Shown here: positions 19,008 to 32,885 of the stretch, piece by piece | Position numbering within the stretch: the first letter of the stretch is position 1 | How the letters are laid out: each line of letters begins with the position of its first letter | Assembly (NCBI GenBank): GCA_964605525.1 | Contig: CAZSCV010000002.1 | Location: 69,888-133,887 of the forward strand | DNA length: 64,000 nucleotides | Source: an uncultured Bdellovibrionales bacterium | GTDB taxonomy: Bacteria; Patescibacteriota; Minisyncoccia; Moranbacterales; UBA9337 | Direction of reading: 5' to 3' | The notes under the pieces: generated by a model | The model's database searches: none | Told to the model about the DNA's origin: nothing | The model's input: only the letters and a program-made list of their open reading frames with translations | Program-made: the position numbers and the translations under genes

Positions 19008-19017
19008 TGCGCAAAGT

Positions 19018-19045: not shown

Positions 19046-19076
19046 AAAGAAGTTTTGAGCGGATATTTTAATTAAT

Positions 19077-19149: not shown

Positions 19150-19176
19150 CAGGGTTGAAAATTGAATAGATAAAAT

Positions 19177-19259: not shown

Positions 19260-19359
19260 CTTCGACTTATTGAGTAAATTAGGATCAAGTCGATAGACTA
19301 GTTATGTTTCACAATGGAGTAGATTTTTTATTGTATCTTTTTGTGCTAATATAGTTTAC

Positions 19360-19950: not shown

Positions 19951-20213
19951 CTCAGTTGGTAGAGCACATCCATGGTAAATTAAAAACTGCCCATTGATTA
20001 GGAAACTTTTCATTGAATCCCGAATAACGGTTAAAGACCTAGCACGAGGTTCAGACCGTGGCGAAATTTTCGCCCGAACGACTGACAAGGGGGACTAAGT
20101 CTTTGGAATACATTGATATGTTCAATATACAGTCTAGTTCTCTTATATAGGTGTTTTAAAAAAAAGAGATAGCAATGAAGGATGAGGTCCGCGGTCCGAT
20201 TCCGCGCAACGGC
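19941..20213 (+). tRNA. tRNA-Thr (anticodon GGU) gene interrupted in the anticodon loop: exon 1 at 19941-19976, exon 2 at 20177-20213
   Basis: Exon 1 is GCCGTTG TA GCTCAGTTGGTAGAGC A CATCC ATGGT. Exon 2 is AA GGATG AGGTC CGCGGTCCGATTCCGCG CAACGGC T. Acceptor stem 7/7 and anticodon stem CATCC/GGATG 5/5. Joined loop is ATGGTAA (U33, A37). Confidence 0.75.
19977..20176 (+). mobile_element. group I-like intron (200 nt) in tRNA-Thr(GGU) anticodon loop, inserted after nt 36
   Basis: 5' exon ends in U and the intron ends in G (omega-G). R-like element CGAACGACUGACA and S-like element AUAUACAGUCUAG can form P7 (GACUG/CAGUC). Size is comparable to the 205-nt Azoarcus tRNA-Ile intron. The P1/IGS pairing is only partly resolved by eye. 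Confidence 0.6.
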
Positions 20214-20256
20214 TCAGAGGAAGGTAAATATGTTAATATGTTAAAATGTAAAATAT

Positions 20257-20418
20257 TATGGCAAAGACAAAGGAAAATCTGGTTAAATTCAAATGCAATG
20301 AGTGCAAAAAAATAACTCATTATTCTAATCGTAACAAAAAGAAATTGAAAGAGAAATTGGAAATGAAAAAATATTGCAAATTCTGCAAAAAGCATACTCT
20401 GCACAAGGAAGCGAAATA
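20257..20418 (+). CDS. rpmG: 50S ribosomal protein L33 (zinc-ribbon type)
   Basis: MAKTKENLVKFKCNECKKITHYSNRNKKKLKEKLEMKKYCKFCKKHTLHKEAK has the CxxC...CxxC L33 signature. Below the ORF-track size cutoff. Confidence 0.85.
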
Positions 20419-20448
20419 ATTTGACAAAAGTCCGCCCTGGCGGACAAA

Positions 20449-20519
20449 GGCGGGTGTCGTACAGTGGCAGTACGTTGGTCTCCAAAACCAATAACGGGAG
20501 TTCGATTCTCTCCACCCGT
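20449..20519 (+). tRNA. tRNA-Trp (anticodon CCA)
   Basis: Acceptor GCGGGTG/CACCCGT (G1.U72), D stem GTAC/GTAC, anticodon stem TTGGT/ACCAA with loop CTCCAAA, T arm GGGAGTTCGATTCTCTC. Preceded by a GTCCGCC-ctg-GCGGAC hairpin. Confidence 0.75.
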
Positions 20520-20530
20520 GCATATCAATT

Positions 20531-20557
20531 AAAAAACGCTTGAATAAGGCGTTTTTT
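20531..20557 (+). terminator. rho-independent terminator after tRNA-Trp
   Basis: AACGC-ttgaataag-GCGTT stem followed by T6. Confidence 0.6.
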
Positions 20558-20687
20558 ACGTTTTTGCTGTAGGTTTATTTGACACACAATGATTTTTATG
20601 CTATCATAAGTAGTTATTGAGGAATAACCCTCAATACAATCCTCAGCGATCGAGGGATCACTCTCGACGCAAAAAAGGAGGCCAGTT

Positions 20688-21122
20688 ATGGCAAATTTAG
20701 TTCTTATTGGTAAAGAAGGACAAATCAAGGCAAAGTTATCCTGCTCTGCATCCTTGCCTCCGGACTTCAAAGTTCCGGAAGGCTGCATTTTAAGCTGGGA
20801 TGATCAGCCGCATCGTGCCGAAGGATGGTATAAGGGCAACCAGAATCGTGGTCCGGAAATCATCAAGCACAGGAGTGCAAGCGCAGTACTGAGGAACTAC
20901 CATCCTACAGTTCATATTCGAATCGAGAGTTCGGATGCCAGAGATCTGTTTGAGCTGATTGAGATCGTATGGCTGCACATTGGCGGAACAGTTATCCCTG
21001 CCAGATGGCCAGCCGAGAGAGATCAATCGTTTATCGCTGGCGTTCAGGGTGATTGCAGGCGATTGAAGGATGGGATTGTTCGGGTCAAACAAGTCATTGG
21101 AATGAAACTCGCCTCTCTCTAG
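20688..21122 (+). CDS. hypothetical protein, compositionally foreign (about 50% GC)
   Basis: Strong RBS AAGGAGG 7 nt upstream. GC and codon usage unlike the flanking genes. No recognised family. Confidence 0.55.
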   Translation: MANLVLIGKEGQIKAKLSCSASLPPDFKVPEGCILSWDDQPHRAEGWYKGNQNRGPEIIKHRSASAVLRNYHPTVHIRIESSDARDLFELIEIVWLHIGGTVIPARWPAERDQSFIAGVQGDCRRLKDGIVRVKQVIGMKLASL

Positions 21123-21207
21123 GGGGGGGTGGCATAAGCTAATGATGCAAACGAAAGGGTTCTCTAGCCGAGCTAGTTGATCCCTTTTTTGTTTATTGAA
21201 TGATGGG

Positions 21208-21244
21208 CCAGTGATTTACAACAGACCATCACTGGTCTTTTTTA
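21208..21244 (+). terminator. rho-independent terminator (CCAGTGAT...ATCACTGG + T-run) fused to repeat copy A
   Basis: 8-bp perfect stem followed by TCTTTTTT. Confidence 0.65.
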
Positions 21245-21340
21245 TTTCATCAAAACCATCGCTCTCTCCAATCTAATTTCAATCACATCCCAATTCTCCA
21301 ATATATTGGTTCGAAGCGTGTACCCTAGTCTGTGCAAAAT
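21238..21340. repeat. copy A of a roughly 105-bp intergenic repeat family (TTTTTTATTTCATCAAAACC...CCAATATATTGGTTCGAAGCGTGTACCCTAGTCTGTGCAA)
   Basis: Near-identical to copy C at 31786-31886; diverged copy B at 22969-23071. Contains the 12-bp perfect palindrome CCAATATATTGG. Confidence 0.8.
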
Positions 21341-21601
21341 AAAGCAGTTTTCTTTACGGAGGCTGTTTTTTTTGTCAGAAAATCTTTTTTAGCGTAACTT
21401 CTTTTTCTTCCATAGCGTTAATTGAGTTAACCCTCCAGTTTACCAGAAAAAGGGGCTTCGGGGTTTGAATTCGGGCCATGGCTGAGGGCTGGACATTTTT
21501 ATTTATTTGTGCAATAATCAAATGTTGCCAAATGATTGGCATCCCTTGAATGCAGGTGGCATTCACAGTTCCTAAAACCCTAAAATGGGAAAGGAGATGC
21601 T

Positions 21602-22915
21602 ATGAAAACGAAAGGGGAAAAAGATGGCTTGTTGGGAGGTGCAATGGCTTTCTATCATGATAAGGGCTTTGTTCCTGCATTTAAGCAAGCAATGCGATAT
21701 GCTGCAGGACGTGCTGGCCGAGTTGGGACTATGCTGGACTGGGTGGATGCACGATTAGCAATACCGCCGTACGAAAAACTGGGCATGCATGACACATCAA
21801 ATCCAACTCCTTGGGATCAGTACTACACAACCATGTCTGCTGAGTATGTTGGTATCAGCAAGGGTGGAACCAAAATCTTGATCGTTGCTCATGGTATCGG
21901 ACCAATGGCAACACTTGATGGTGTCGTCGAAGCATATCGATATCATTATAATGATAAGACACGCCGGACTGAGGGTGGCCGTATTTCAGTGGAGGAGTTC
22001 CGGAAGCTTGAGAGTGGCATCTATGGTGACGTGGTGATTGTCGATCTTGAAGAGTATGTATTTGAGCGTGAGTATCCGTTCATTGCAACTCTCCACTATT
22101 TTGATGCACTGGATGACTCAGTGCTTAAGGCTCGCCTTGGCTCAAGGGCTGATGAGTACATTGAGCAACATGCAAATTATGCAAGGAAATACCATCTGGA
22201 TGCTCATCAGCGTATGATTATAGATCCCTACATTATAGGGAACGAAGGACCGGGAATGTACTGGGTCAAAAATACCAAGCCCGAAGATGGTCTTGCATAT
22301 GCTCATCTTCTGAGCGTCGGTGCGATTACGAATTTACATGTCAGCCAAAGCGAGCATCGGGTCCCCAGCTGGGTGTCTGATGTGAACACACATGGTTGGT
22401 ATGACGGTACTCGCCTGATTGGTATTCCTGAGGGTAAGCTTGCATCTATCGGCAAAGGCCCTGATGCATATCGCCTGCTGCGCAAGCACTGGCAAGAGCT
22501 TTTTGAGCCGAGTGGTCTCAACCGCTCACCCGATGGGCTCTTCGTTCTGATGCAAATGCCGGACAAGACGTGGTTCACGCAGTTCCAGAAGAAGGGAGCT
22601 AGCGCTGACAGCTACGAACCGGAATTCCGTGTGACGTCGATGGAGAAGGTGGGGGAACTTGCTCGGTTTTACACCGAGTCGAACTATCCCGTCCCGATCT
22701 TCCGATACGACATCCGCGAGGCGCAGGCTGTGCTTTCCAAAGAAACCAATGCTTACGAACTCGTTGGTGATCCGACCAAGACAGGTGGTGCTGATAGTCA
22801 GGAGACCTGTCTCGTGCAGGGCTATCGCATCGAAATTGACCATACGCAACGGCTTATGCGACAAGAAGTATTGGCCAATAATTACGAAAAGATGATGCAG
22901 CTTCACGAGAAGTAA
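21602..22915 (+). CDS. hypothetical protein, compositionally foreign (about 50% GC), 437 aa
   Basis: RBS GGAAAGGAG; no recognisable domain by inspection. Confidence 0.55.
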   Translation: MKTKGEKDGLLGGAMAFYHDKGFVPAFKQAMRYAAGRAGRVGTMLDWVDARLAIPPYEKLGMHDTSNPTPWDQYYTTMSAEYVGISKGGTKILIVAHGIGPMATLDGVVEAYRYHYNDKTRRTEGGRISVEEFRKLESGIYGDVVIVDLEEYVFEREYPFIATLHYFDALDDSVLKARLGSRADEYIEQHANYARKYHLDAHQRMIIDPYIIGNEGPGMYWVKNTKPEDGLAYAHLLSVGAITNLHVSQSEHRVPSWVSDVNTHGWYDGTRLIGIPEGKLASIGKGPDAYRLLRKHWQELFEPSGLNRSPDGLFVLMQMPDKTWFTQFQKKGASADSYEPEFRVTSMEKVGELARFYTESNYPVPIFRYDIREAQAVLSKETNAYELVGDPTKTGGADSQETCLVQGYRIEIDHTQRLMRQEVLANNYEKMMQLHEK

Positions 22916-22930
22916 AAGCATCGAAATCCT

Positions 22931-22974
22931 GCGGAGCCGCACCCACAGCAATATGTGGGTCGCGGCTCTTTTTT
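22931..22974 (+). terminator. rho-independent terminator (GAGCCGC...GCGGCTC + T6) fused to repeat copy B
   Basis: Long GC-rich stem-loop followed by a T-run. Confidence 0.6.
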
Positions 22975-23071
22975 ATTTCATCAAAATTCTTACTTGCTCT
23001 AATTTTGCCTTAACACTTTCCCAATTTTCCACCATTAAAGTTCGAAGTATATACCTTCTCCTGTGCTGATG
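22969..23071. repeat. copy B (diverged) of the roughly 105-bp repeat family
   Basis: Shares TTTTTTATTTCATCAAAA...CCAATTTTCC...AGTTCGAAGTATATACC...GTGCTGATG with copies A and C. A further right-end fragment is at about 23868-23915. Confidence 0.65.
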
Positions 23072-23233
23072 AAAAACGAGGCTTATTTGAGCTTTGTTTT
23101 TGTTTGGGGACTGGACATGATAACTTCTTTTAGTGTCTACCAACGCGCATTGAATAAAGGCAGGAACTATGTTAGTATCGAGGTGGATTATAAATTAATT
23201 CACCTTGTTTTTATTAGATTAAAAAAATGCAAT

Positions 23234-23770
23234 ATGACAAACAAATTAGAAAAATGGGAGGAAATTTCCAGAGAGGAAATTTTTAGTAAATATGGGAGAG
23301 GCATTGAAAAAGTTGATTTCAAATTGCCAAATGGAGAAATCACTGATTTCTATATCAAAAAGGAAAGTGTTTTCGTGGCTACCCTAGCGATAACCAAAGA
23401 TGAAAAAATCATTCTTGTTAAGCAATTCAGACCAGGACCAAAAGAAATTCTTACTGAATTGCCTGGTGGTTATGTTGACAAAGGCGAGATTCCGAAGCAA
23501 GCGGCAGAAAGAGAACTTTTAGAAGAGACTGGGTATAAGGGAAGCGCAGAATTTGTAACATCTATCATTGGCGACGGTTATTCTACGATGGAAAAAAATT
23601 GTGTCGTGGTGACTGATTGTGAGAAAGTTTCCGAACAAAAACTTGAAGAAAATGAATTTACTGAAGTTGTGTTGATGTCAATTGCAGAATTTAGAGAATT
23701 GCTTAGAAGTGGAAAAAGCTCAGATGTTGAAGTCGGATATCTTGGTTTGGATTACTTAGGATTATTGTAG
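23234..23770 (+). CDS. NUDIX hydrolase (ADP-ribose pyrophosphatase-like)
   Basis: Nudix box GGYVDKGEIPKQAAERELLEETGY. Start chosen at the internal ATG (MTNKLEKWEE), because the upstream part of ORF 23063 overlaps repeat B. Confidence 0.75.
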   Translation: MTNKLEKWEEISREEIFSKYGRGIEKVDFKLPNGEITDFYIKKESVFVATLAITKDEKIILVKQFRPGPKEILTELPGGYVDKGEIPKQAAERELLEETGYKGSAEFVTSIIGDGYSTMEKNCVVVTDCEKVSEQKLEENEFTEVVLMSIAEFRELLRSGKSSDVEVGYLGLDYLGLL

Positions 23771-24140
23771 ATAAAAAAATAGTGAGCAGGAGAGTGGGGT
23801 AATTTATATTTGCTGGCTTAAGTCTGGAATATAAATATATTCCTTTCTTTTCATAAAAATAGTTCTAACGTCCTTTACTACCCCGTGCATATAAAACAAG
23901 GCTTATTTGCTAGAGTCTTGTTTTCGTGTCTTGTGGATTGGGGTTAGAATTGTGATATAATGGGCATATGAAAATAAATAAATTGACTCCGGAAGAAAAA
24001 AGAATAATTATCGACGCGGTAGCTACCTATGAGTAAAATTGGATTAGGTCTATAAAGTGGTTTAACAACGGGGATGGGCGGGTGTAAGATATTAGTATAA
24101 TCTAAATTATACTAATCTGAATTATAGATATTATAAAAAT

Positions 24141-24215
24141 ACTAAGAATTCAGGAATTTCAGCCAAAGACTGATCCGCCTATGGCGGAAATTCAGTAATA
24201 AGTTCAGTAATAAAC
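24141..24215. repeat. left boundary repeat of defense-like island (GAATTCAGGAATTTCAG...CCGCCTATGGCGG AAATTCAGTAATAA GTTCAGTAATAAAC)
   Basis: Shares the core GGAATTCAGTAATAAA (direct) and the GAATTCAGGAATT/AATTCCTGAATTC module with 30190-30262. Confidence 0.6.
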
Positions 24216-24231
24216 TTATTAAAACAAAAAA

Positions 24232-24396
24232 ATGCCAAGAAGAAAATCGGAAGATAATAATATCAGGAAATTGACCAAATCCGGCAACGGGTCAATTGGG
24301 CTAACGCTTCCGATTGAAGTTGTTCGCGAACTTGGTTGGAAAGAAAAGCAGAAAGTTTACCCCGTAGTCAGCCCCGATGTACTACTGGGGTGGTAG
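24232..24396 (+). CDS. AbrB/SpoVT (MazE-like) swapped-hairpin DNA-binding small protein, 54 aa
   Basis: KLTKSGNGSIGLTLPIEVVRELGWKEKQKV is typical of AbrB/MazE-type antitoxin or regulator domains. Below the ORF-track cutoff. Confidence 0.5.
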   Translation: MPRRKSEDNNIRKLTKSGNGSIGLTLPIEVVRELGWKEKQKVYPVVSPDVLLGW

Positions 24397-24539
24397 TCAA
24401 ACGAGTCCGTGGAGGCGTGCTGGTTAAGGACTGGAAAAATAAGATTTTATAAAAACTATGGCAAGCGAAAAGAAAATTGAGGCTTTTGAAAAAACCCTTT
24501 TTAAGGTGGCAGATAAATTGCGAAAAAAATATAAATATT

Positions 24540-25958
24540 ATGGATATAAGCGAAATTAAAAAAATAATTAATAGGGCTTTCGATGCTCGTTCAGAGCTAA
24601 GCGGAATAGAATTTAAAGATGCGCGCGGTGGATTTCCAGCAGACCCAACGGCAAAAACTCTTTCTGCTTTTGGCAATACGAAAGGTGGCGTTATTGTATT
24701 TGGCGCGTTGGAACATAAAGATCGTTCTTTGGAAATTGTTGGCACGCAAAATTCTGCAGTACTACAAGAGCGTATGGCACAGTTGTCATCTGAAGGCATG
24801 AGTGAAGTATTGCGTCTGGAATATCAAATCCTTTCTATGGAAGGAAAAACAGTTTTGGCAGTAGTTGTTCCGGAATGCCGTAGTCATGTTAAGCCATATT
24901 ATGTAAAAAAATTTGGTATGGATAGAGGTGCATTTGTGCGTGACGGTATTACGGATCGTCAGATGACAGCCGAGGAAGTGCGAAGTTGCGTGCGTAATGC
25001 GCAAGTTGATGATTTTGATGGAAATTGTGCGGATAATCTAATCAAAGAAGATCTATCGATTATAAAAATTGAAAATTTTCTCAAAAAAAGTGCAAAAAAG
25101 GTTGGACGTATTTTTGATAGTGTTGACGATGTGCTTCTTAAAAATATCGGCGTGGCACGTGAATGTGGTGGTGTTTTACGCCCAACAATTGCAGGTTATC
25201 TTATTTTTGCAAATCAAAATCCGCAAAACACTCTTCAGTTTGAGCGTTATAAGATTAGATGTGTCAGATTTAAGGGATCAGGAGTAGCGAGTGATATTAT
25301 TGATAAAGCAGATATCGTTGGCACACTGGATGAACAGATTGATGTTATGGAATCTTTTGTATTACGCAATATTAAAAATAGTGCTGAAATTGTAGGCACT
25401 AAACGAGTTGAGAGATATGAATATCCGGAAAAAGCAGTTCGCGAGATTTTGGCTAATGCTGTTATTCATAGGGATTATCGTATCACAGAAACATATACGC
25501 AAGTCAATATTTTTGACGATCGTATAGAAGTATTTAATCCAGGGAACTTGCCTCCGGGTGTAACAGTGGAAAATATTAAGGATGCGCAAGAGAGTCGCAA
25601 TCGCATCATAGCAGCTCGTCTTAATGAAATGGACTATCTTGAAGAATATGGTCGTGGTATCGATATAGTTTTTACATTGATGTCAGCATGGGGATTGTTG
25701 CCGCCAATTTTCAAAAACTCATCAAATAGCTTTAAGGTTGTCCTACCAGGTGAAAGATTGAGTAAATTAAATGATCGTCAGATTAAAATTTGGCAATATT
25801 TGATGGACAACAATAGATTAAATCGTAAGGATGTTGAAAAGATATTACCAGATACCCCCGTGGAAACTATCAAATATGATTTACGAAAAATGAAGGATAT
25901 GGGTCTTATTGGCCAACGAGGCGAATCTATTAACACATATTATGAGGCAGCCTTTTAG
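24540..25958 (+). CDS. AlbA_2 (Schlafen-like) DNA-binding domain + HATPase_c_4 ATP-binding protein (putative regulator, COG2865-like)
   Basis: N-terminal IKKIINRAFDARSELSGIEFKDARGGFP...GGVIVFG AlbA_2-type; C-terminal RecG-C/HATPase_c_4-like region and winged HTH. Confidence 0.55.
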   Translation: MDISEIKKIINRAFDARSELSGIEFKDARGGFPADPTAKTLSAFGNTKGGVIVFGALEHKDRSLEIVGTQNSAVLQERMAQLSSEGMSEVLRLEYQILSMEGKTVLAVVVPECRSHVKPYYVKKFGMDRGAFVRDGITDRQMTAEEVRSCVRNAQVDDFDGNCADNLIKEDLSIIKIENFLKKSAKKVGRIFDSVDDVLLKNIGVARECGGVLRPTIAGYLIFANQNPQNTLQFERYKIRCVRFKGSGVASDIIDKADIVGTLDEQIDVMESFVLRNIKNSAEIVGTKRVERYEYPEKAVREILANAVIHRDYRITETYTQVNIFDDRIEVFNPGNLPPGVTVENIKDAQESRNRIIAARLNEMDYLEEYGRGIDIVFTLMSAWGLLPPIFKNSSNSFKVVLPGERLSKLNDRQIKIWQYLMDNNRLNRKDVEKILPDTPVETIKYDLRKMKDMGLIGQRGESINTYYEAAF

Positions 25959-25961
25959 AGG

Positions 25962-26078
25962 AATTAACCGCAATTAACCGTAATAGTAAAAAATGGCTTA
26001 GGGAGGGGGAGGGGGAGGGTGTATAATGCCTAAAGGAATTAACCGCAATTAACCGTAATAGTAAAAAATAGCTTAAAA
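25962..26078. repeat. two 41-bp direct repeats (GGAATTAACCGCAATTAACCGTAATAGTAAAAAAT.GCTTA) separated by a G-tract GGGAGGGGGAGGGGGAGGG
   Basis: Read directly: 25962-26002 and 26037-26078. Each repeat contains AATTAACCG twice. The intervening G3-5 tracts fit a G-quadruplex motif. Confidence 0.7.
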
Positions 26079-26424
26079 TAAGGATTTTAAGGGTATGGAG
26101 TTTTAGACGAAATTAGACGAATTAAACGCAATGTCGAAAAAGGCTTAAATAAAAGACTTATGATCGTGTAGCCTTTTAAATTAAAGAATCTTAAAGGAAA
26201 CATTGGAGATTGGGGAAAGGGAGAAATATGAAAAGAAGATTGGGGTGGCCAAAAAAGAGGGTCGGAAATGCCGGTCTTTTGGATATAATCGCAATCATCT
26301 GACTGGATTACAAACTGGAATTGCTGCGAAGTTGCCCTTGCGATGCTCATTTGAGAAAGTGTTGAGTAATCAGTTGCTTGATGGTATTATATAAATATAA
26401 TAACATCCCTTAATTTCAACAAAT

Positions 26425-27447
26425 ATGGAACGAAAAGACATTATTAAAAAAATTGAGACATTGCGAAGCTCAAAGGTGATAACCTACGCAACCAGTGATC
26501 GGCAAGGTCCAGTCAATGCTCGGGTGGCGATGGATATTATTCCGATTATCAGCTCGCAACTGCGAAAGATTGGGAAGCAAGAAAAGATTGATTTGGTGCT
26601 GTATAGCGCAGGAGGCGACACCATGGTGCCATGGCGCTTGGTTTCGATGATTCGCGAGTATTGCGACCAGTTTTCTGTAATAATCCCATATAAAGCCCAT
26701 AGTGCGGCCACTATGATTTCTTTGGGAGCGGATGAAATTGTGATGAGCGATATGAGCGAGCTTTCACCGATTGATCCGTCCACAGCCAATGTTTTCAATC
26801 CGATTGACCCGCAAAATCCGCAAAAACGCATCCCGATTTCCGTGGAAGAAGTGATGAGCTATTTTGATTTGGCAAAAAACAAGTTTGGAATCAAGAGCGA
26901 TGAGGAACTGACCAAGATTTTCAACAAGTTTGTGGAAAGCACACCATCCATCCATCCTTTGGCTTTGGGTAATGTTAATCGAACACACAATCTGATTAAA
27001 ATCCTAGCGAAAAGATTACTTAAGAGCCATAAGGAGTCGATGAAAGAGGATGAGGTGGAAAAAGTGATTGAATTCCTGACGGAAAAATTATATTCACATC
27101 AATACTACATTGGAAGAAAAGAAGCCAAGGAAGATCTCGGCATTAAGTCTGTGGTTTTTGCTGGCCAAGATCTTTCTGATCTGATGACGGATATTTATGA
27201 AGAGTATGAAAAGGAAATGAATATGCGAAAAATGTGGAATCCGGAGAATGAAATCGGCGGCAATGCAGAAACTAGAAAAGAATATAAAATCGCATTCGTC
27301 GAAAGCGCGGAAACGAGCAATCATTTTGGAATCAATATGGAATTTAAAAAAGTCCAACAAAACATCCCACAACAAACTCCGCAAGGAATCATTCAAATTC
27401 CACAGGAGCAAATTGTTTGGAGAATGATTGGACAGGGGTGGAAATAA
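26425..27447 (+). CDS. Clp-fold serine protease (SDH/SppA-ClpP-like)
   Basis: LVLYSAGGDTMVPWRLVSMIREYCDQFSVIIPYKAHSAATMISLGADEIVMSDMSELSPIDP resembles the ClpP/crotonase-fold catalytic core (Ser, then His/Asp). Confidence 0.45.
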   Translation: MERKDIIKKIETLRSSKVITYATSDRQGPVNARVAMDIIPIISSQLRKIGKQEKIDLVLYSAGGDTMVPWRLVSMIREYCDQFSVIIPYKAHSAATMISLGADEIVMSDMSELSPIDPSTANVFNPIDPQNPQKRIPISVEEVMSYFDLAKNKFGIKSDEELTKIFNKFVESTPSIHPLALGNVNRTHNLIKILAKRLLKSHKESMKEDEVEKVIEFLTEKLYSHQYYIGRKEAKEDLGIKSVVFAGQDLSDLMTDIYEEYEKEMNMRKMWNPENEIGGNAETRKEYKIAFVESAETSNHFGINMEFKKVQQNIPQQTPQGIIQIPQEQIVWRMIGQGWK

Positions 27448-27448
27448 A

Positions 27449-27733
27449 ATGAAAAATTTAATCAACATAGAAATCAAAGATTCATTCAACAAGAAGGATC
27501 ACTCATACAAAAAAGATGAAGATATTTCCAATCATGTCTCCACGCTAAATGATACAAAAAACATTTTGGAAACTTATTCTGCTAGTGTGGGATCGATTAC
27601 GGGACATCATTTTGATGGAAGTATAAATATTGTAAAAAATCAAGGAAAAGGAATTTGGAGAGAAATTATTATTGGAACTACCAGTGCAGTTCTTGGTGCA
27701 GTTATAAGTTATTTCATTTTTGGAATTAAGTAA
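27449..27733 (+). CDS. small protein with C-terminal TM anchor (operon partner of the protease)
   Basis: Start 2 nt after the protease stop; C-terminal IIIGTTSAVLGAVISYFIFGI helix. Confidence 0.4.
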   Translation: MKNLINIEIKDSFNKKDHSYKKDEDISNHVSTLNDTKNILETYSASVGSITGHHFDGSINIVKNQGKGIWREIIIGTTSAVLGAVISYFIFGIK

Positions 27734-27739
27734 TAAAAT

Positions 27740-28429
27740 ATGAAGAAGTATAAAATTGATATTTATGTATTGTTGCCTGCAATAGCATTCTTGGTGGGTT
27801 GGTTTTTAAAAGGGCTCATAAATTTCAATATAATCAAATTACTAAATTCAAATTTTTTTGTTGCTCTTATCACTGCAATAGTGGGCTATACTGCTATCCA
27901 TTTGTATAAAAAACAGCAAGCAGATAATAAGAAAAATGCTGCAAGACTTATCATACAGGAAATAAGATATGCGGAACAACAAATACGAAATGCAAAAATG
28001 TTGACGCCTGCAGTAGAAACCAATTATTATTTGGCATTAAAATTATTACCAACAAATAGCTGGCATAAAAACATACATTTATTTGTTGAGGATTTGCAAG
28101 AAGAAAATCAACTTGATCTCGTTAGTCAATTTTACTCCCAAGCAGCTTATCTGGATAGCGTAATTGAAATAATTTCCAACGAAAAAAACAAGACATGGAA
28201 TGTTGTAAAATCCTCACTTCTTGCAAATGAAAAAGGTCAAATGCAAATAGCAATGGGGCTTATCCTTCCCTCTGGACATAGTACATTAGACGCTTCAAAT
28301 GAAAATTTTAAAATTGAATTAAAGCTTCAGGCCAATCAAATTTTATCTGATGTTACAGGCAAAATAGAGTTTATATATAATTCTTCTGCTGTGGATAAAT
28401 TAAGATCTATTGCTAAAGGTAAGTTGTAA
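27740..28429 (+). CDS. membrane protein with two N-terminal TM helices and cytoplasmic domain
   Basis: Tightly spaced in the same operon; no family recognised. Confidence 0.45.
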   Translation: MKKYKIDIYVLLPAIAFLVGWFLKGLINFNIIKLLNSNFFVALITAIVGYTAIHLYKKQQADNKKNAARLIIQEIRYAEQQIRNAKMLTPAVETNYYLALKLLPTNSWHKNIHLFVEDLQEENQLDLVSQFYSQAAYLDSVIEIISNEKNKTWNVVKSSLLANEKGQMQIAMGLILPSGHSTLDASNENFKIELKLQANQILSDVTGKIEFIYNSSAVDKLRSIAKGKL

Positions 28430-28441
28430 AAAATATTAATT

Positions 28442-29215
28442 ATGAAAAAGGACGACCAGCGATGGACACGAGAACAGACAATAGTCGCTTTTAACTTATA
28501 TTGTAAAATCCCTTTCAATAGAGTTACTTCAAGTCACCCTGAAATAATAAAAATCGCCAAAATTATCGGTCGGAGTGTAAATTCGGTAAAAATGAAAATA
28601 GGCAATTTTGGAAGTTTTGATCCAGAGCTTAAAAAAAGAGGAATTGTTGGACTTACCAATGCAAGCAAGCTGGATGAGGTTGTTTGGAATGAATTTAATA
28701 ATAATTGGGATGATTTGGCTTTCGAAAGCGAAAAAATATTAACGAGCTTTGAGGGAGGGGACATTTTGAAAAATGCACAAGCCAGTGAAGATAATTTTTG
28801 TTTTGTGGAAGGAATTGAAAAGGAAAGATTGGTAAAGACAAGGGTAAATCAAAGCTTTTTTCGCCAGACAGTTTTATCTGCGAATAATTCATCCTGTTGT
28901 ATTACTGGAATAGATATTCCAGCACTTCTTATTGCCAGTCATATAATTCCTTGGAGCAAAGCGGCCAAAGACAGGCTAAACCCACGAAACGGATTATGTC
29001 TGAATGCCCTGCATGACAAAGCTTTCGATAAAGGACTGATGACTATTACCCCTGACTTTAAAATAAAAATATCTCCAAAAATACTCGAGAACCCGAGTGC
29101 GCCAATTGAAAAATGGATAGCCAGTTTTGAAGGTAAAAATATAATAATTCCAGAAAGATTTGTGCCAACAACTCAAATACTTGAGTATCATAATAAAAAT
29201 ATTTTTCAATTATGA
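28442..29215 (+). CDS. HNH endonuclease (HNH_2 / putative restriction endonuclease family)
   Basis: CCITGIDIPALLIASHIIPWS...NGLCLNALHDKAFDKGLMTI matches the HNH_2 core. Confidence 0.65.
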   Translation: MKKDDQRWTREQTIVAFNLYCKIPFNRVTSSHPEIIKIAKIIGRSVNSVKMKIGNFGSFDPELKKRGIVGLTNASKLDEVVWNEFNNNWDDLAFESEKILTSFEGGDILKNAQASEDNFCFVEGIEKERLVKTRVNQSFFRQTVLSANNSSCCITGIDIPALLIASHIIPWSKAAKDRLNPRNGLCLNALHDKAFDKGLMTITPDFKIKISPKILENPSAPIEKWIASFEGKNIIIPERFVPTTQILEYHNKNIFQL

Positions 29216-29713
29216 TTGCTAAAACAACATATATTCGGCCGAATATTACGATTGAATATGAGATTATCGGATCAAGAAAGTTTTACATATATAATTACAA
29301 GGGAATCCATTATAGGGTTTTTTGTTCGTTGAAAAATTTACGAAATTTTATTACAAAGGCATGCGAAACATGGATTTTTGAATGTGGCACTGAAAATGAA
29401 TTAGAAAAATATTTATACAGCCATATCCAAGCACATTAAAATCAAGAATTTTTTGGTTGCGATCGCGTTGGGCATGACACCAAATAAGAAATGGGACGGC
29501 TTCACTAAGGCGCACGGCGGCTATATTATTGTCAGGGAGGACGGGGAACTTGTTTGTTATCATCTCTATAATAGAGATGAGTTTCAAAATTATCTTTACA
29601 AGAATACCAAATTGGATACGCCAAGCACAACCAGACATAAATTCGGGAGTATTTATGAAGAAAACGGAGAGAAAAAAGTAAAATATAATCTGCAAATAAG
29701 GTTTATAAAATAG
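29212..29713 (+). pseudogene. frameshifted remnant ORFs (29212-29439 frame 1; 29453-29713 frame 2), possibly a decayed restriction endonuclease
   Basis: Two short adjacent ORFs in different frames immediately upstream of vsr. No methyltransferase present. Family not identifiable by eye. Confidence 0.3.
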
Positions 29714-29723
29714 TATTCAAATC

Positions 29724-30125
29724 ATGGCAGATATTTTTTCAAAAAATAAAAGATCCGACATAATGTCCAAAATCAAAAGTAAGGAAACGGGAATTGAAAT
29801 AAAACTGAGAAAAGAACTGTGGAAGGCGGGCTACAGATATCGGAAAAATGTATCAGGCTATTTCGGAAAGCCTGATATTTTATTAAAAAAATACAAGACG
29901 GTTATTTTCGTTGATTCCTGTTTTTGGCACGGATGTAAAAAACACGGATCAATGCCTCAAACTCGCAAGAAATTTTGGAAAGAAAAAATCGAGCGAAACA
30001 AAGAACGAGACAAAGAGGTTAATAAGTATTACAAAAAAATAGGCTGGAAGGTTATCAGAATTTGGGAGCATGATATAATAAATGGCTCATGGATAAAAGG
30101 GGTCAGGCACTTTTTTGAGAAATAA
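29724..30125 (+). CDS. vsr: very short patch repair endonuclease Vsr
   Basis: RSDIMSKIKSKETGIE...FVDSCFWHGCKKHG...GWKVIRIWEHD is canonical Vsr. Confidence 0.85.
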   Translation: MADIFSKNKRSDIMSKIKSKETGIEIKLRKELWKAGYRYRKNVSGYFGKPDILLKKYKTVIFVDSCFWHGCKKHGSMPQTRKKFWKEKIERNKERDKEVNKYYKKIGWKVIRIWEHDIINGSWIKGVRHFFEK

Positions 30126-30189
30126 GATTAAAATAAAATTATGACACCAAAAAACAAAAAATTTTCCATTGCTCTTGCCGGCTGGCGCA

Positions 30190-30262
30190 AGGCTCTGAAT
30201 TGTCCGTAATTAATTCCTGAATTCCTGCCCGCCTCTGGAGGGAATTCAGTAATAAATAAAAA
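30190..30262. repeat. right boundary repeat of defense-like island (AATTCCTGAATTCCTG CCCGCC TCTGGAGGG AATTCAGTAATAAATAAA)
   Basis: Shares core sequences with 24141-24215. Contains the inverted repeat CTGAATTCC...GGAATTCAG. Confidence 0.6.
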
Positions 30263-30337
30263 TTAAAATAAATAAATAAAAAAAATATCCAAACTCATCA
30301 TTTACTCTTAATTATTTAATTTGGATTCTCAACTAAG

Positions 30338-30499
30338 ATGTCCCAACAAAAAATAAAAATCATCACTGTAAATGACAAGATGCAGTCAGGATACAAATAT
30401 AATCTGACTGAGTTGATGGGGAAGAATTTTGATCCGGCGTTCAAGCCGGAGCTGACTCCCAAGGAGATGCTGGCGCTGGAATTGTATTCAAAAGCGTGA
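30338..30499 (+). CDS. 53-aa ORF upstream of fic (possible cognate small partner/antitoxin, or N-terminal gene fragment)
   Basis: MSQQKIKIITVNDKMQSGYKYNLTELMGKNFDPAFKPELTPKEMLALELYSKA. Its stop lies in the first CAAAAGCGTGAAAA repeat. Confidence 0.3.
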   Translation: MSQQKIKIITVNDKMQSGYKYNLTELMGKNFDPAFKPELTPKEMLALELYSKA

Positions 30500-30534
30500 A
30501 AATGTGAGAATTTTAATGATTTTTCACGATTATG

Positions 30535-30562
30535 TTGACAAAAGCGTGAAAAAGAGTATAAT
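30535..30562 (+). promoter_or_regulatory. consensus sigma70 promoter TTGACA-16-TATAAT for fic, overlapped by direct repeat CAAAAGCGTGAAAA (x2)
   Basis: Perfect hexamers. The 14-nt motif occurs at 30489-30502 and within the spacer at 30539-30552. Confidence 0.65.
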
Positions 30563-30570
30563 ATTAACAT

Positions 30571-31458
30571 ATGGTTAAAATACTAAATGTCTACAATAAA
30601 ATAAGTTTTCTGCGCGAGCGATACTATGAGGCATCTGCCGATAAAGATGCGCTTATTAAGCTTATTGCTGAAGCTGAAGTGGCTGAACAGGTGTATAACT
30701 CCAATGCCATCGAAAACAGCACTCTTTCACTTGAAGAAACGGAAAAAATACTTTTACAGATTGATCTGGATAGATATATTTCTGAGCGAGAAATTTTTGA
30801 AGCCAAAAATTTGGCACGAGTTGTGTCATACATTGATAAAAAATCTAAAGAGCAAGAACTCACTCTTGAGGTAATTTTGTCATTGCATAAAATGCTAATC
30901 TCCAATATTCGCGATGACATTGCTGGCAGATTCAGAAAAGATAATGAATTTGTGCGAGTTGGAAATCACATTGCGCCTAATCCAAAAGAAGTGGTTGAAC
31001 GATTAGAAAAAATGCTGGCTGAATATAATGCTTCAAGTCACGAAAATATTATAAAGCGTATTGCAAAACTGCATTTGACTTTTGAATATGCTCATCCATT
31101 TTGTGATGGCAATGGACGCATTGGGCGAGTTATTAATAATTATCTGTTAATGCGAGAGGGGTTCGTGCCGATAAATATAAAATTTATTGATCGCAAAAAA
31201 TATTATGAAGCGTTTCGAGAATTTGATGCAAATGGATCGACTGCTATTATGGAGGAAATAGTTGGCAAAGCTTTGACTAATAGTTATCATAAGCGGTTGG
31301 CATATTTGGAAGGCAAAAAAATAATTACCTTGGTTGAATATGCAAAAAACAATAAGCTTTCACATTCTAATATGATAAATAAGGCTAGTAGACAAACTAT
31401 TGAGGCTTTTTTGGAAAAGAATGTTTGGAAAATTGGGATCAATAATGATACAAAATAA
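30571..31458 (+). CDS. fic: Fic/Doc family protein (AMPylation-type toxin-like)
   Basis: Fic motif HPFCDGNGRIGR. Confidence 0.85.
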   Translation: MVKILNVYNKISFLRERYYEASADKDALIKLIAEAEVAEQVYNSNAIENSTLSLEETEKILLQIDLDRYISEREIFEAKNLARVVSYIDKKSKEQELTLEVILSLHKMLISNIRDDIAGRFRKDNEFVRVGNHIAPNPKEVVERLEKMLAEYNASSHENIIKRIAKLHLTFEYAHPFCDGNGRIGRVINNYLLMREGFVPINIKFIDRKKYYEAFREFDANGSTAIMEEIVGKALTNSYHKRLAYLEGKKIITLVEYAKNNKLSHSNMINKASRQTIEAFLEKNVWKIGINNDTK

Positions 31459-31785
31459 TATTTTATAAACGAATCAGAAACAAGAGCTGAATATATTGAT
31501 CCCAAGTTGAAAACCAGTGGCTAGGGAGAAGTTGAAGCTAAAAGGTATACTCAATTCTGTGCTGATGTGATAAAATTCGAAATAGTTTGGTAGTGTCCCC
31601 GATAACATCTGCGTTGCAGACTGAAGGATGCTAGGGAATTGGCTCTGGTTTTCCCGGACACTAAAAACGCACGGTCCCCAGCGGTCATGGTCCACCGTAT
31701 AGGCCACGTTGCTGAAATATGGACTTGTTTACCGGGATTTGAGCAGGAATGCTATTTATTAAAGCTTCCTGATACTCAGATCCCG

Positions 31786-31886
31786 TTTTTTATTTCATCA
31801 AAACCATCGCTCACTTCAATTTAATCTCAATCACATCCCAATTCTCCAATATATTAGTTCGAAGCGTGTACCCTAGTCCGTGCAAG
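31786..31886. repeat. copy C of the roughly 105-bp repeat family (near-identical to copy A)
   Basis: TTTTTTATTTCATCAAAACCATCGCTCACTTCAATTTAATCTCAATCACATCCCAATTCTCCAATATATTAGTTCGAAGCGTGTACCCTAGTCCGTGCAAG. A partial right-end copy at about 31540-31580 (GGTATACTCAATTCTGTGCTGATG) lies in a GC-richer segment. Confidence 0.8.
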
Positions 31887-32036
31887 TACTGAAAAATGCC
31901 TTTAAATTGGCATTTTCTGCGTTTTGTTTTAAACACATTCATTTGGGTGTGTTTTTGTTTTTGGGAGTGGGGGCGAGAAGAAAATAATCGTGATATAATA
32001 AGAATATTGAATAATAAGTGAGCGAGTATTTTTTGT

Positions 32037-32885
32037 ATGAAAATTTTTAAAAGTAAGGTTTGCAAAATGATGCTACTTGGCGCACTGGGATTGATAGTGA
32101 TTATTGGTTGGTATTTTCTGGACAAACCTCCTTTGCAGGGCGATTGGCAGGAGCAATTAGCGGTGGCATCAACTGCAGAATTCAATGGTGATTTCGTGAC
32201 TGTTAAAAATGTGCGAAATTTTCGATATTATCCAACTGAAGCTGATATGCATCCGGATTATTATGACAAAACCTATAATCTTACTCAAATAAAAAAAGTT
32301 TGGTACATAACTGAGCCGTTTAATGAAAACAAGATTGCCGCACACACATTTGTTTCTTTTGAATTCAATAATGGCGACTTTTTGTCTATCAGTATTGAAG
32401 CTCGCAAGGCTAAGGGTCAAACATATAGTACTTTGAAGGGTATGGTGCATTCCTATCCGCTTATATATATCGCGGCCGATGAAAGGGATGTTCTTTTAAT
32501 GCGGGCTAATCTGCGCAAAGATCAGGTCTATGTGTATCCGGTGAGGTTGGAAAAACAGGAGAATGCCAGATTGCTGTTGGTCGATATGCTAGGAAAAATG
32601 AATGAATTGACTTCGACTCATCCAGTCTGGTACAATACGCTTTTTGCCAACTGCACTTCCAGTATTGCTAGTCACATAAACAAGATTACTCCCGGACGCA
32701 TCTCTATTTTTTCTTGGCAACTCTGGTTAACCTCATCAGCAGATGAATTGGCCTTGGAACGTGGTCTTCTGGACACTGATTTGCCCATTGAGCAAGCTCG
32801 GGAAAAATATAATATAAATGCAATTTCCGAGAAAGTCGGCGACATGGAAAATTATTCGTCCGAGATCAGAAGGGGATTGAGGTAA
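32037..32885 (+). CDS. hypothetical membrane-anchored protein (possibly DUF4105-like)
   Basis: N-terminal TM; DUF4105 is guessed from overall pattern only. Confidence 0.35.
   Translation: MKIFKSKVCKMMLLGALGLIVIIGWYFLDKPPLQGDWQEQLAVASTAEFNGDFVTVKNVRNFRYYPTEADMHPDYYDKTYNLTQIKKVWYITEPFNENKIAAHTFVSFEFNNGDFLSISIEARKAKGQTYSTLKGMVHSYPLIYIAADERDVLLMRANLRKDQVYVYPVRLEKQENARLLLVDMLGKMNELTSTHPVWYNTLFANCTSSIASHINKITPGRISIFSWQLWLTSSADELALERGLLDTDLPIEQAREKYNINAISEKVGDMENYSSEIRRGLR

What the first reader, a model, noticed from the sequence alone, without database searches (positions are those of the whole stretch)
24141..30262. A 6-kb defense-like island bounded by short direct repeats
The sequences at 24141-24215 and 30190-30262 share GGAATTCAGTAATAAA and an inverted GAATTCAGGAATT / AATTCCTGAATTC module, each with a local hairpin. 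Between them lie an AbrB/MazE-like ORF, a Schlafen/AlbA_2-HATPase protein, a protease-membrane-membrane-HNH operon, a frameshifted REase remnant and vsr. The fic toxin-like gene with its small upstream ORF (30338-31458) lies just outside the right repeat. Content and boundaries fit a mobile defense island with att-like ends.
Basis: partly seen in the sequence, partly recalled or inferred. Interest (0 to 1): 0.55.

Follow-up and report, generated by a model that had tools for sequence, protein, structure and literature searches.

The report
Cassette array behind a tRNA-Trp gene
The proposed 6-kb island is not a unit of its own: it is the inside of an unusually large, patchwork unit in a row of swappable gene cassettes behind the tRNA-Trp gene of a Moraniibacteriota (CPR) bacterium, where every unit ends in a repeat whose last 7-8 bases copy the end of the tRNA.

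Summary

The two segments share one direct and one inverted exact 13-mer, 24 of 29 bases when aligned, and a hairpin each. This is borderline against chance. The motif is absent from about 1.1 Mb of related loci, and no empty site was found.

**The real boundaries.** Real repeats lie elsewhere. There are ~100-nt "type A" elements at 21238-21337, 22969-23068 and 31786-31885, and a 66-nt "type B" element at 23824-23889. All but one end in C(C/T)GTGCA, the 3' end of tRNA-Trp at 20450-20522; the divergent copy ends CCTGTGCT. They cut the 11.5 kb between tRNA-Trp and the Lnb_N gene into four units.

**Relatives.** Related genomes have different co-oriented units at the same place, 30 units with a median of 1.26 kb. 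One relative has only 2.2 kb there. No integrase lies nearby, and the elements have no attC-like hairpin.

It sits inside the last unit, 23890-31885, about 8.0 kb. That unit is a mosaic of intact genes (SLFN-ATPase, protease-TM-TM-HNH, Vsr, Fic) and remnants (AbrB-like, hsdM, HpaII, hsdR).

**Most likely origin.** Repeated site-specific insertion at the tRNA-Trp 3' end by a recombinase acting in trans, followed by decay.

The parts
20450..20522 (+). tRNA-Trp(CCA). Its last 8 nt, CCCGTGCA (20515-20522), are the core shared with the ends of all the cassette elements. It anchors the array.
   Evidence: ARAGORN and Rfam; core positions; the tRNA-Trp genes of five relatives all end in CCCGTGCA.
20523..21337 (+). 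Unit 1. Terminator hairpin after the tRNA, a 144-aa ORF (20688-21122, no Pfam family), a hairpin, then type A element 21238-21337 ending in CTGTGCA. GC is 0.41-0.45.
   Evidence: composition.
21338..23068 (+). Unit 2. A 437-aa ORF (21602-22915, no Pfam or NCBIfam family, GC up to 0.50), a strong hairpin, then a divergent type A element 22969-23068 (65% identical to the first copy) ending in CCTGTGCT.
23069..23889 (+). Unit 3. NUDIX hydrolase gene (23234-23770), then type B element 23824-23889 ending in CCCGTGCA.
   Evidence: Pfam; gene call in L001; type B alignment and HMM hits.
23890..31885 (+). Unit 4, about 8.0 kb (7996 nt between element ends). It is the largest of the 30 units measured (median 1256 nt).
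   Evidence: Unit lengths; no further core between 23889 and 31878.
24141..24215 (+). It ends 17 nt before the AbrB-like start codon.
24232..24453 (+). AbrB/MazE-like antitoxin-type gene, broken by a 29-nt insertion flanked by the direct repeat GTAGTCA. This leaves a 54-aa ORF (24232-24396).
   Evidence: Pfam MazE_antitoxin E = 3e-4, below the cut-off. TIGR02609 doc_partner E = 0.004. The insertion was read from the sequence. The reconstructed protein gives the same weak hit. A 56% homologue lies in L068.
24458..24528 (+). 5' remnant (24 codons) of a type I R-M hsdM gene.
   Evidence: 83% identical, in both DNA and protein, to the start of the HsdM gene that precedes the SLFN homologue in L092.
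24540..25958 (+). SLFN_AlbA_2 + HATPase_c_4 protein (472 aa). It is followed by a 75-nt tandem repeat at 25956-26148.
   Evidence: Pfam; PADLOC hits only to domain-sharing models; homologues and their contexts; repeat.
26425..29215 (+). Operon of four genes: SDH-type ClpP-like serine protease (26425-27447), a 94-aa protein with a C-terminal TM helix (27449-27733), a 229-aa protein with two N-terminal TM helices (27740-28429), and an HNH_2 endonuclease (28442-29215).
   Evidence: Pfam, NCBIfam and PADLOC. TM helices were read from the translations. In relatives the protease, with or without the TM genes, is 73-85% identical in DNA, but the genes downstream differ.
29212..30125 (+). A 75-aa ORF with no family, an HpaII restriction enzyme C-terminal remnant (29453-29713), and an intact vsr gene (29724-30125).
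   Evidence: Pfam RE_HpaII E = 3.9e-37 over profile positions 276-359 of 359; Vsr E = 1.3e-29.
30190..30262 (+).
30338..31458 (+). A 53-aa ORF with no family (30338-30499), then the Fic gene (30571-31458), which has its own TTGACA/TATAAT promoter preceded by a CGTGAAAA hairpin.
   Evidence: Pfam Fic E = 1.2e-23. PADLOC PDC-S04 E = 3.8e-34 and SoFic E = 2.9e-26. The promoter region is homologous to that of the Fic cassette in L074.
31464..31580 (+). 5' remnant of a type I restriction enzyme R subunit gene, with one in-frame stop.
   Evidence: tblastn of the 39-aa translation: of the 11 plasmid hits, 8 lie in genes annotated as 'EcoAI/FtnUII family type I restriction enzyme subunit R' and one more in another type I R-M restriction gene. 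E-values are 2e-3 to 0.5, weak individually. Pfam finds nothing. The same remnant occurs in L004.
31786..31885 (+). Type A element, 94% identical to 21238-21337, ending in CCGTGCA. It closes the array. A terminator hairpin and the Lnb_N gene (32037-32885) follow.

Best explanation
The 24141-30262 interval is not a self-contained mobile island. It is the interior of the last and abnormally large unit (23890-31885) of a cassette array anchored at the 3' end of tRNA-Trp in a Candidatus Moraniibacteriota genome.

**What is shown.**
- Between tRNA-Trp and the Lnb_N gene the DNA is divided into co-oriented units.
- Each unit starts with a terminator-like hairpin, carries one to a few genes, and ends in a conserved element: type A (~100 nt) or type B (~66 nt).
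- The last 7-8 nt of these elements (C(C/T)GTGCA) are the last bases of the tRNA; one divergent copy ends CCTGTGCT.
- Related genomes hold different units in the same place.
- The same unit can follow a tRNA, a type A element or a type B element.

**What is inferred.**
- Units enter one at a time by site-specific recombination at this core. The tRNA end acts as the chromosomal site and the element as the site carried by the cassette.
- Each new unit supplies a fresh terminator for the tRNA and pushes older units outward.
- The recombinase acts in trans, because none is encoded in or next to the arrays.
- Unit 4 then grew and decayed by ordinary illegitimate or homologous events. A type I R-M locus containing the SLFN-ATPase lost most of hsdM and hsdR. 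A protease-TM-TM module that elsewhere usually precedes type III R-M genes is here joined to an HNH nuclease. An HpaII system was cut down to 86 codons plus vsr. The AbrB-like gene was broken.
They are not recombination ends.
For: **Organism and flank synteny.**

**A real repeat family in the window.** Two copies are 94% identical and a third is 65% identical.

**Copies in relatives.** There are 33 type A and 10 type B copies in the window and its relatives, almost all co-oriented with the genes.

**The core.** All four CYGTGCA sites in the 64-kb window lie on the + strand, at the end of the tRNA or of an element. The tRNA-Trp genes of five relatives end in the same 8 nt.

**Variable content at the same place.**
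- L009 has tRNA-Trp, SPFH, A, a 145-aa ORF, A, then Lnb_N in 2.2 kb, against 11.5 kb here.
- L068 has eight units after tRNA-Trp.
- L004, the closest relative (Lnb_N 90% identical), has other units between Fic and Lnb_N.

**Insertion signature.** In L068, 1.07 kb lies between the intact tRNA-Trp and a degenerate 22-nt copy of its 3' end. That copy is followed by the terminator that directly follows the tRNA in the window.

**Junction evidence.**
- A NUDIX unit is 81% identical over 689 nt between L068 and L074. Homology begins within 7 nt after the core, although the preceding element is type A in one locus and type B in the other.
- The same families of post-core hairpins follow tRNA-Trp, type A and type B elements.

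**Unit sizes.** n = 30, median 1256 nt, and 28 of the 30 are 518-1750 nt. Unit 4 of the window is about 8.0 kb (7996 nt between element ends).

**Cassette gene families.** Fic, GNAT, NUDIX, ASCH, HIT and Ham1.

**Mosaic nature of unit 4.**

Against:
- The core is only 7-8 nt and is not over-represented by count. The argument rests on its position.
- The similarity between the 3' part of the element and the tRNA beyond the core is not significant (p about 0.05 by shuffling).
- In two comparisons sequences diverge 55 nt (L058 against L064) and about 140 nt (window against L004) after the core. Either the site extends past the core, or other recombination also shuffles the array.
- Related loci were fetched with a pattern taken from the repeat, so how often arrays sit next to tRNA-Trp is known for only six loci.
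- Most contigs are short metagenome assemblies.
- No excised circle or strain-level presence/absence of a unit was observed.
Confidence: 0.6

Rival explanations
1. One reading: 24141-30262 is a discrete mobile defence island whose short repeats are att-like ends or terminal inverted repeats left by its insertion.
For: - The two segments share a direct and an inverted exact 13-mer and 24 of 29 aligned bases, each with a hairpin.
- The pair ranks second of 13,752 intergenic tile pairs.
- The content is defence-like.
- The 13-bp inverted pair resembles terminal inverted repeats.
Against: - No relative carries the motif, and no empty site was seen.
- There is no integrase or transposase inside or nearby.
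- No target-site duplication flanks the inverted 13-mers (sequence).
- The enclosed blocks occur separately elsewhere, in other contexts.
- An hsdM remnant inside the interval and an hsdR remnant outside it suggest that one decayed R-M locus spans the right 'boundary'.
- Chance expectation is up to 0.78 per window.
Confidence: 0.07
2. The array is real, but no site-specific recombinase is involved. On this view type A and B elements plus the hairpins are conserved terminator or intergenic modules, and units are exchanged by homologous recombination (for example after DNA uptake), using these modules and the tRNA as homology anchors.
For: - No recombinase was found.
- Every element is flanked by hairpin-plus-T-run terminators.
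- Breakpoints 55 and about 140 nt after the core occur in two comparisons.
- The elements are 65-100 nt and 65-94% identical, enough for some homologous exchange.
Against: - Unrelated left partners (tRNA, type A, type B) are joined to homologous right partners within a few nt of an 8-nt core, which is too short for homologous recombination.
- All elements end at the same base, and that base is the end of the tRNA.
- L068 has a partial tRNA 3' end duplication of the kind left by tRNA-targeting integration.
- All units share one orientation.
Confidence: 0.25
3. The reader's two segments are functional cis elements rather than scars. They would be shared operator or terminator sites placed before two small-ORF-led gene pairs (AbrB-like/SLFN and o53/Fic), perhaps bound by an AbrB-type regulator of the Doc/Fic-partner kind.
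For: - Both segments lie just upstream of a small ORF followed by a larger gene.
- The left one carries a tandem TTCAGTAATAA 17 nt before the start codon.
- The AbrB-like ORF weakly matches TIGR02609 doc_partner.
- The Fic cassette of L074 has two copies of ATAAATTCACTAAA around a TTGACA/TACAAT promoter.
- Both hairpins are more stable than shuffles.
Against: - The AbrB-like gene is broken (sequence).
- The family matches are below the curated cut-offs.
- The right segment is 76 nt upstream of o53, not at the mapped Fic promoter.
- The motif is not conserved upstream of the AbrB, SLFN or Fic homologues read.
- The resemblance to the L074 motif covers only about 9 bases.
Confidence: 0.2

Closest known systems
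Integrons, in particular sedentary chromosomal integrons and CALINs (clusters of attC sites lacking an integrase)
   Same: - A one-directional row of short units, mostly single genes, each ending in a repeated site.
- New units appear next to a fixed anchor.
- The same unit occurs in different neighbourhoods.
- The junction lies at a short conserved core at the end of the site.
- The cargo (GNAT, NUDIX, Fic/toxin-type and unknown genes) resembles that of chromosomal integrons.
- As in CALINs, no integrase is adjacent.
   Different: - The sites are not imperfect palindromes. RNAalifold finds no pairs in 19 copies, and single copies do not fold better than shuffles.
- The core is CCYGTGCA, not GTTRRRY.
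- The anchor is the 3' end of a tRNA gene rather than an attI next to intI.
- Units carry their own terminators and, at least for Fic, their own promoter.
- No IntI-type gene was seen.
tRNA-targeting integrative islands that pile up in tandem, such as the tycheposons of Prochlorococcus (bioRxiv 10.1101/2020.12.28.424599)
   Same: - Integration at the 3' end of a tRNA gene.
- Repeated integrations at the same site push older material outward.
- Partial tRNA copies and degenerate remnants are scattered in the island (passages read).
- The hosts have streamlined genomes with few classical mobile elements.
- The cargo includes defence and niche genes.
   Different: - Tycheposons and classical islands carry their own tyrosine or serine recombinase, and often replication genes, and are several kb to tens of kb long. 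Here the units are 0.5-1.75 kb with no mobility gene.
- The shared tRNA-derived stretch is only 7-8 nt (22 nt, degenerate, in one case), attached to a 66-100-nt element that is not tRNA sequence.
Defence islands and integration hotspots flanked by conserved core genes
   Same: - Restriction, nuclease, Fic and Schlafen-type genes cluster together with remnants of others.
- The content differs between close relatives while the flanks are conserved: the S2-Tsf-PSP1-TPR-tRNA cluster on one side, and Lnb_N-ATPase-IspA on the other.
   Different: Most units in the related arrays are not defence genes, and the hotspot has a regular repeat architecture that ordinary defence islands lack.

Membership tests
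Integron / CALIN | An integron integrase (intI, a tyrosine recombinase) with attI and a Pc promoter next to the array. Not required for a CALIN. | tested here: not met
   No Phage_integrase or other recombinase family among the window ORFs, nor among the top-ranked families of 69 cassette and flanking ORFs or in 10 further ORFs.
Integron / CALIN | attC sites: imperfect inverted repeats (R''-L''/L'-R') that fold into a hairpin, with a GTTRRRY core. | tested here: not met
   RNAalifold on 19 full-length type A copies gives 0 predicted pairs. Single copies fold no better than shuffles apart from the upstream terminator. The core is CCYGTGCA. Rfam finds no family.
Integron / CALIN | An array of co-oriented short cassettes, each bounded by a recombination site. 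The same cassette is found in different arrays, with the junction at the core. | tested here: met
   Array maps; unit lengths and strands; a NUDIX unit shared by L068 and L074 with homology starting within 7 nt after the core.
tRNA-targeting integrative island / tycheposon-like element | Located directly at the 3' end of a tRNA gene. | tested here: met
   The array starts at tRNA-Trp in the window and in L009, L058, L059, L068 and L073.
tRNA-targeting integrative island / tycheposon-like element | Direct repeats of a partial tRNA 3' end flank the integrated DNA. | tested here: inconclusive
   Every element ends with the last 7-8 nt of the tRNA. One 22-nt degenerate partial tRNA copy occurs in L068. 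Similarity beyond the core is not significant.
tRNA-targeting integrative island / tycheposon-like element | The element encodes its own integrase (tyrosine or large serine recombinase). | tested here: not met
   Same searches as for intI. The one rve-domain ORF among 69 is a DDE transposase type, seen in a single locus.
   A 13-bp perfect inverted pair exists. It does not extend further, it has no flanking duplication (TACTAA against CTGCCC), and no transposase lies inside.
Type II R-M system HpaII with Vsr repair | An intact restriction enzyme, a cognate C5 methyltransferase, and vsr. | tested here: not met
   Only profile positions 276-359 of 359 of RE_HpaII remain. No methyltransferase family occurs in the interval. 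Vsr is intact.
Fic/Doc toxin with AbrB/Phd-type antitoxin | An antitoxin gene directly upstream of, and co-transcribed with, the Fic/Doc gene. | tested here: not met
   The AbrB-like ORF is 6.2 kb from Fic, is broken, and scores below the curated cut-offs. The ORF directly upstream of Fic (o53) has no family.
Known anti-phage systems in PADLOC-DB 2.0 | Model hits to the proteins of a described system. | tested here: inconclusive
   Single-protein hits: HNH (PDLC04132, E = 3.5e-94), Vsr, and Fic (PDC-S04 E = 3.8e-34, SoFic E = 2.9e-26). SLFN-ATPase hits only domain-sharing pAgo and Aga models. The protease and both TM proteins have no hit. System-level rules could not be run.

The most novel reading that the evidence does not exclude
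A clade of Moraniibacteriota (CPR bacteria) may have a previously undescribed gene-capture system that works like an integron but is built differently. The 3' end of tRNA-Trp would serve as the fixed insertion site. Promoter- and terminator-equipped mini-cassettes of 0.5-1.75 kb would carry one of at least two families of non-palindromic 66-100-nt sites ending in CCYGTGCA. A recombinase encoded elsewhere, possibly of an unrecognised type, would insert and excise them. A second, independent novelty in the same interval is that the SDH-protease plus membrane-protein module could be an uncharacterised accessory or regulatory partner of restriction systems, since it sits directly upstream of type III R-M genes in 5 of 7 contexts.
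Probability: 0.35. Interest if true: 0.8.

Novelty: new variant of a known kind. Interest (0 to 1): 0.6.

Why it matters
- CPR bacteria have tiny genomes and few recognised mobile elements, and how they gain and lose accessory and defence genes is poorly understood.
- A regular, integrase-less cassette array at a tRNA gene would be a concrete and searchable mechanism for that turnover. The two element families and the 8-nt core give patterns that can be scanned across all Patescibacteria genomes and metagenomic reads.
- The result is also a caution for island calling. The short repeats that looked like ends were not the ends. The real borders were found only by comparing relatives.
- The association of a highly conserved ClpP-like protease and membrane proteins with restriction systems is a testable lead for defence biology.

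Tried and rejected
1. **attC-like structure of the repeats.** No consensus pairs were found, and single-copy folds are not better than shuffles.
2. **Rfam.** It found only three tRNAs in the window, and nothing more at E <= 0.1 in 19000-32100.
3. **Empty site among strains.** Every contig with identical Fic, Lnb_N, NUDIX or Vsr is the same arrangement. The contig breaks fall at 30288/30298 (an A-rich run) and about 31610.
It is absent.
5. **Type A and B elements on viral contigs.** The 14 pattern hits were all chance, with no HMM match, and type B gave none.
6. **A hidden recombinase among the unknown 337-462-aa cassette proteins.** They are not similar to one another and have no Pfam family.
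7. **The interval as a transposon.** There is no target duplication and no transposase.
8. **The type A element as the 3' end of a real gene on the minus strand.** It does read as a roughly 31-codon ORF with more third-position variation. However, several copies carry stops, no longer parent gene exists in any locus, and Pfam finds nothing. This is left open as a coding imprint of unknown meaning.
9. **Homology of the 3' half of the element to the tRNA-Trp 3' half beyond the core.** It is not significant.
10. **Literature.** No paper was found on integrons or cassette arrays in Patescibacteria, or on the SDH protease as a defence partner.

Full report
**1. Check of the observation**

The sequence at 24141-24215 and 30190-30262 was read.
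- The exact 16-mer GGAATTCAGTAATAAA is present only on the right, at 30241. The left side has copies with 2 and 3 mismatches.
- What the two segments share exactly is one direct 13-mer (AATTCAGTAATAA, 24189 and 30243) and one inverted 13-mer (GAATTCAGGAATT, 24146 + and 30212 -).
- Aligned, 24 of 29 bases agree.
- Each segment folds into a hairpin about 2.5 SD more stable than shuffles.

Against chance the result is borderline.
- Co-located double 13-mers otherwise occur in the window only inside true long repeats.
- They are expected 0.08 times per window with local shuffles, but 0.78 times under a third-order Markov model.
- Among 13,752 pairs of intergenic tiles the pair ranks second. The first-ranked pair, and part of this one, are an A/T-rich leader (AGTAAnAAAT...AAAAAAAATAT) that also precedes a small ORF starting about 9235.

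The gene list is confirmed by Pfam, NCBIfam and PADLOC:
- a MazE/AbrB-like ORF (below the cut-off);
- SLFN_AlbA_2 + HATPase_c_4;
- SDH_protease, two membrane proteins and HNH_2;
- the last 84 residues of HpaII;
- Vsr;
- Fic behind a 53-aa ORF.

**2. A different and much stronger repeat**

Contigs carrying identical proteins were compared with the window. This exposed a 100-nt direct repeat, 94% identical, at 21238-21337 and 31786-31885. A third, 65% identical copy lies at 22969-23068. Each copy is preceded and followed by a hairpin with a T run whose sequence varies.

A second element family, type B (66 nt, 23824-23889), was found from matches to relatives.

All these elements end in the same short sequence as tRNA-Trp at 20450-20522.
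- The tRNA and type B end in CCCGTGCA.
- The type A copies end in CTGTGCA, CCGTGCA and, in the divergent copy, CCTGTGCT.
- CYGTGCA occurs four times in the 64 kb, all on the + strand and all at these ends.
- The count itself is not above chance. The argument is the position.

**3. Relatives**

The organism is a Candidatus Moraniibacteriota.
- In L009 the conserved left flank (S2, Tsf, PSP1, TPR, tRNA-Thr/Tyr/Thr, L33, tRNA-Trp) is followed by only 2.2 kb before the Lnb_N gene: SPFH, type A, a 145-aa ORF, type A. The window has 11.5 kb there.
- L004 is the closest relative (Lnb_N 90%, M50 96% identical). It has the same Fic gene but three other units between Fic and Lnb_N.
- A metagenome scan with a pattern from the repeat returned further arrays. 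L068 has eight units behind tRNA-Trp.
- In all, 33 type A and 10 type B copies were found.
- The 30 measurable units have a median length of 1256 nt, and 28 of them are 518-1750 nt. Their ORFs are almost all co-oriented with the tRNA.
- Their genes are Fic, GNAT, NUDIX, ASCH, HIT, Ham1, dehydrogenases and many unknowns.

**4. Evidence that the core is a recombination joint**

- (a) In L068 an intact tRNA-Trp is followed by 1.07 kb (a 133-aa ORF, a type A element and an AbrB-like pseudogene). Next comes a degenerate 22-nt copy of the tRNA 3' end. The terminator that follows it is the one that directly follows the tRNA in the window. This is the classical footprint of insertion into a tRNA 3' end.
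- (b) A NUDIX unit is shared by L068 and L074, 81% identical over 689 nt. Homology begins within 7 nt after the core, although the preceding element is type A in one locus and type B in the other.
- (c) The same families of post-core hairpins, for example AAAC-AAGGCTT...AAGCCTTG-TTTTTGTATAGAGAA, follow tRNA-Trp (L058), type A elements (L009, L068, L070) and type B elements (L074, window).

Two comparisons count against a joint lying strictly at the core.
- L058 and L064 are identical through the element, the core and the hairpin, and diverge 55 nt after the core.
- The window and L004 share a type A element plus about 140 nt before different genes.

The functional site may therefore include the hairpin module, or other recombination also acts on the array.

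**5. What the elements are not**

- They have no conserved secondary structure: 0 pairs in 19 copies.
- They match no Rfam family.
- They are not found on viral contigs.

On the minus strand, type A reads as a roughly 31-codon ORF (MHGLGYxLRxNILENWDxIExRLERAMALMK). Third codon positions are more variable than the others (0.98 against 0.61-0.71 bits). However, several copies carry stops, and no longer parent gene or family was found. Its meaning is open.

No recombinase is encoded in the window or in the arrays at the sensitivity available.

**6.

The window holds four units: 20523-21337, 21338-23068, 23069-23889 and 23890-31885. The first two have GC of 0.41-0.50 against about 0.36 elsewhere.

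That unit is a mosaic.
- **AbrB-like gene.** It is broken by a 29-nt insertion between GTAGTCA repeats (sequence).
- **hsdM remnant.** 24458-24528 is the first 24 codons of an hsdM gene. In L092 the full hsdM directly precedes the 88% identical SLFN-ATPase inside a type I R-M operon.
- **hsdR remnant.** A 5' remnant of hsdR lies beyond Fic at 31464-31580 (weak but consistent).
- **Protease module.** The protease has 2194 homologues at E <= 1e-5, 72-91% identical in more than 100 clusters.
  - In 5 of 7 contexts read, the protease and one to three small downstream genes (TM proteins where they match those of the window) sit directly upstream of type III mod and res genes.
  - DNA homology to the window stops at gene borders: 27446, 27738 or 28405.
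  - Here the partner is an HNH_2 nuclease.
  - In L080 the protease operon ends in a type A element.
- **HpaII and Vsr.** HpaII is reduced to its C-terminus. Vsr is intact but has no methyltransferase.
- **Fic.** In L074 a 52% identical Fic is a single cassette between a type A and a type B element. Its promoter region is homologous to the one at 30490-30570.

**7. Mechanism**

- *Shown:* the architecture, its variability, the shared core, the partial tRNA duplication and the swapped left partners.
- *Inferred:* units are inserted one by one at the tRNA-Trp 3' end by a site-specific recombinase acting in trans. Each brings a new terminator for the tRNA and its own site. Older units are displaced outward and decay. 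Unit 4 is a product of later fusions, deletions and insertions among defence genes.
- *Main rival:* exchange of units by homologous recombination using the elements as anchors.
Their function was not established.

**8. Comparison with known systems**

The array works like an integron or CALIN, with co-oriented mini-cassettes, a core junction and similar cargo. It fails the defining tests for one, because there is no attC hairpin and no IntI.

It also resembles tandem accretion of tRNA-targeting islands such as tycheposons, where later integrations push earlier ones into the island and leave partial tRNAs and remnants (10.1101/2020.12.28.424599). However, its units lack any integrase and are ten times smaller.

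No paper describing such arrays in Patescibacteria, or the protease module as a defence partner, was found. That is not proof of absence.

**9. Verdict**

The variable locus and the defence-type content hold up. The boundaries and their att-like role do not.
- What is there is a new variant of a known kind of structure, with a moderate chance of being a distinct gene-capture system.

Noticed in passing
window 19360-20215: tRNA-Thr(GGT) at 19941-20215 is interrupted by a 201-nt intervening sequence after position 37. ARAGORN finds it only with the intron option. No Rfam intron family matches at E <= 0.1. Relatives L009, L058 and L068 have the same tRNA uninterrupted. Just upstream is a 196-aa ORF with no Pfam family, and 30-34% homologues of it sit in the same tRNA cluster in L058, L059 and L073.
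   Followed up: partly
window 26425-28429; loci L080, L081, L083, L088, L089, L090: The SDH-type ClpP-like protease plus one to three small downstream proteins forms a very widespread and highly conserved module. It has 2194 homologues, many 72-91% identical, including one in an Asgard archaeon MAG. It lies directly upstream of type III R-M mod and res genes in 5 of 7 contexts read. No PADLOC model and no paper covers it.
   Followed up: partly
window 25956-26148: A 75-nt tandem repeat (three copies: reference, 96% and 62%) lies immediately after the SLFN-ATPase stop codon. Matching sequence also follows the homologous genes in L091 and L092.
   Followed up: no
window 24363-24396: The AbrB-like gene is interrupted by a 29-nt insertion bounded by the 7-nt direct repeat GTAGTCA. 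Removing it restores an in-frame 63-aa protein ending in ...VKRVRGGVLVKDWKNKIL.
   Followed up: partly
window 20523-23068: The first two units behind tRNA-Trp (144-aa and 437-aa ORFs with no known family) have 41-50% GC in a genome of about 36% GC. This suggests recent arrival from a different donor.
   Followed up: no
window 55100-59800: A second repeat-rich stretch holds a 209-nt family (3 copies, 86-99%), a 136-nt pair, 27-31-nt families of 4-5 copies, and 29-nt palindromes. These are interspersed with small ORFs of unknown function.
   Followed up: no
window 32037-32885; loci L004-L052: The Lnb_N-domain gene that closes the array is 67-78% identical in MAGs labelled as many different CPR groups (Paceibacterota, Saccharibacteria, Zambryskibacteria, Doudnabacteria and others), with no shared neighbours. 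This conservation is unusually high for such distant lineages.
   Followed up: no
window 21238-21337 and all type A copies: On the minus strand the type A element reads as a roughly 31-codon ORF that starts at the core (ATG/TTG-CAC-GGG). Third positions are more variable than first and second, yet several copies carry in-frame stops. Type B also opens with MHG because of the core.
   Followed up: partly
window 24092-24115: A perfect 10-bp inverted repeat, TTAGTATAAT-CTAA-ATTATACTAA, contains a TATAAT box.
   Followed up: no
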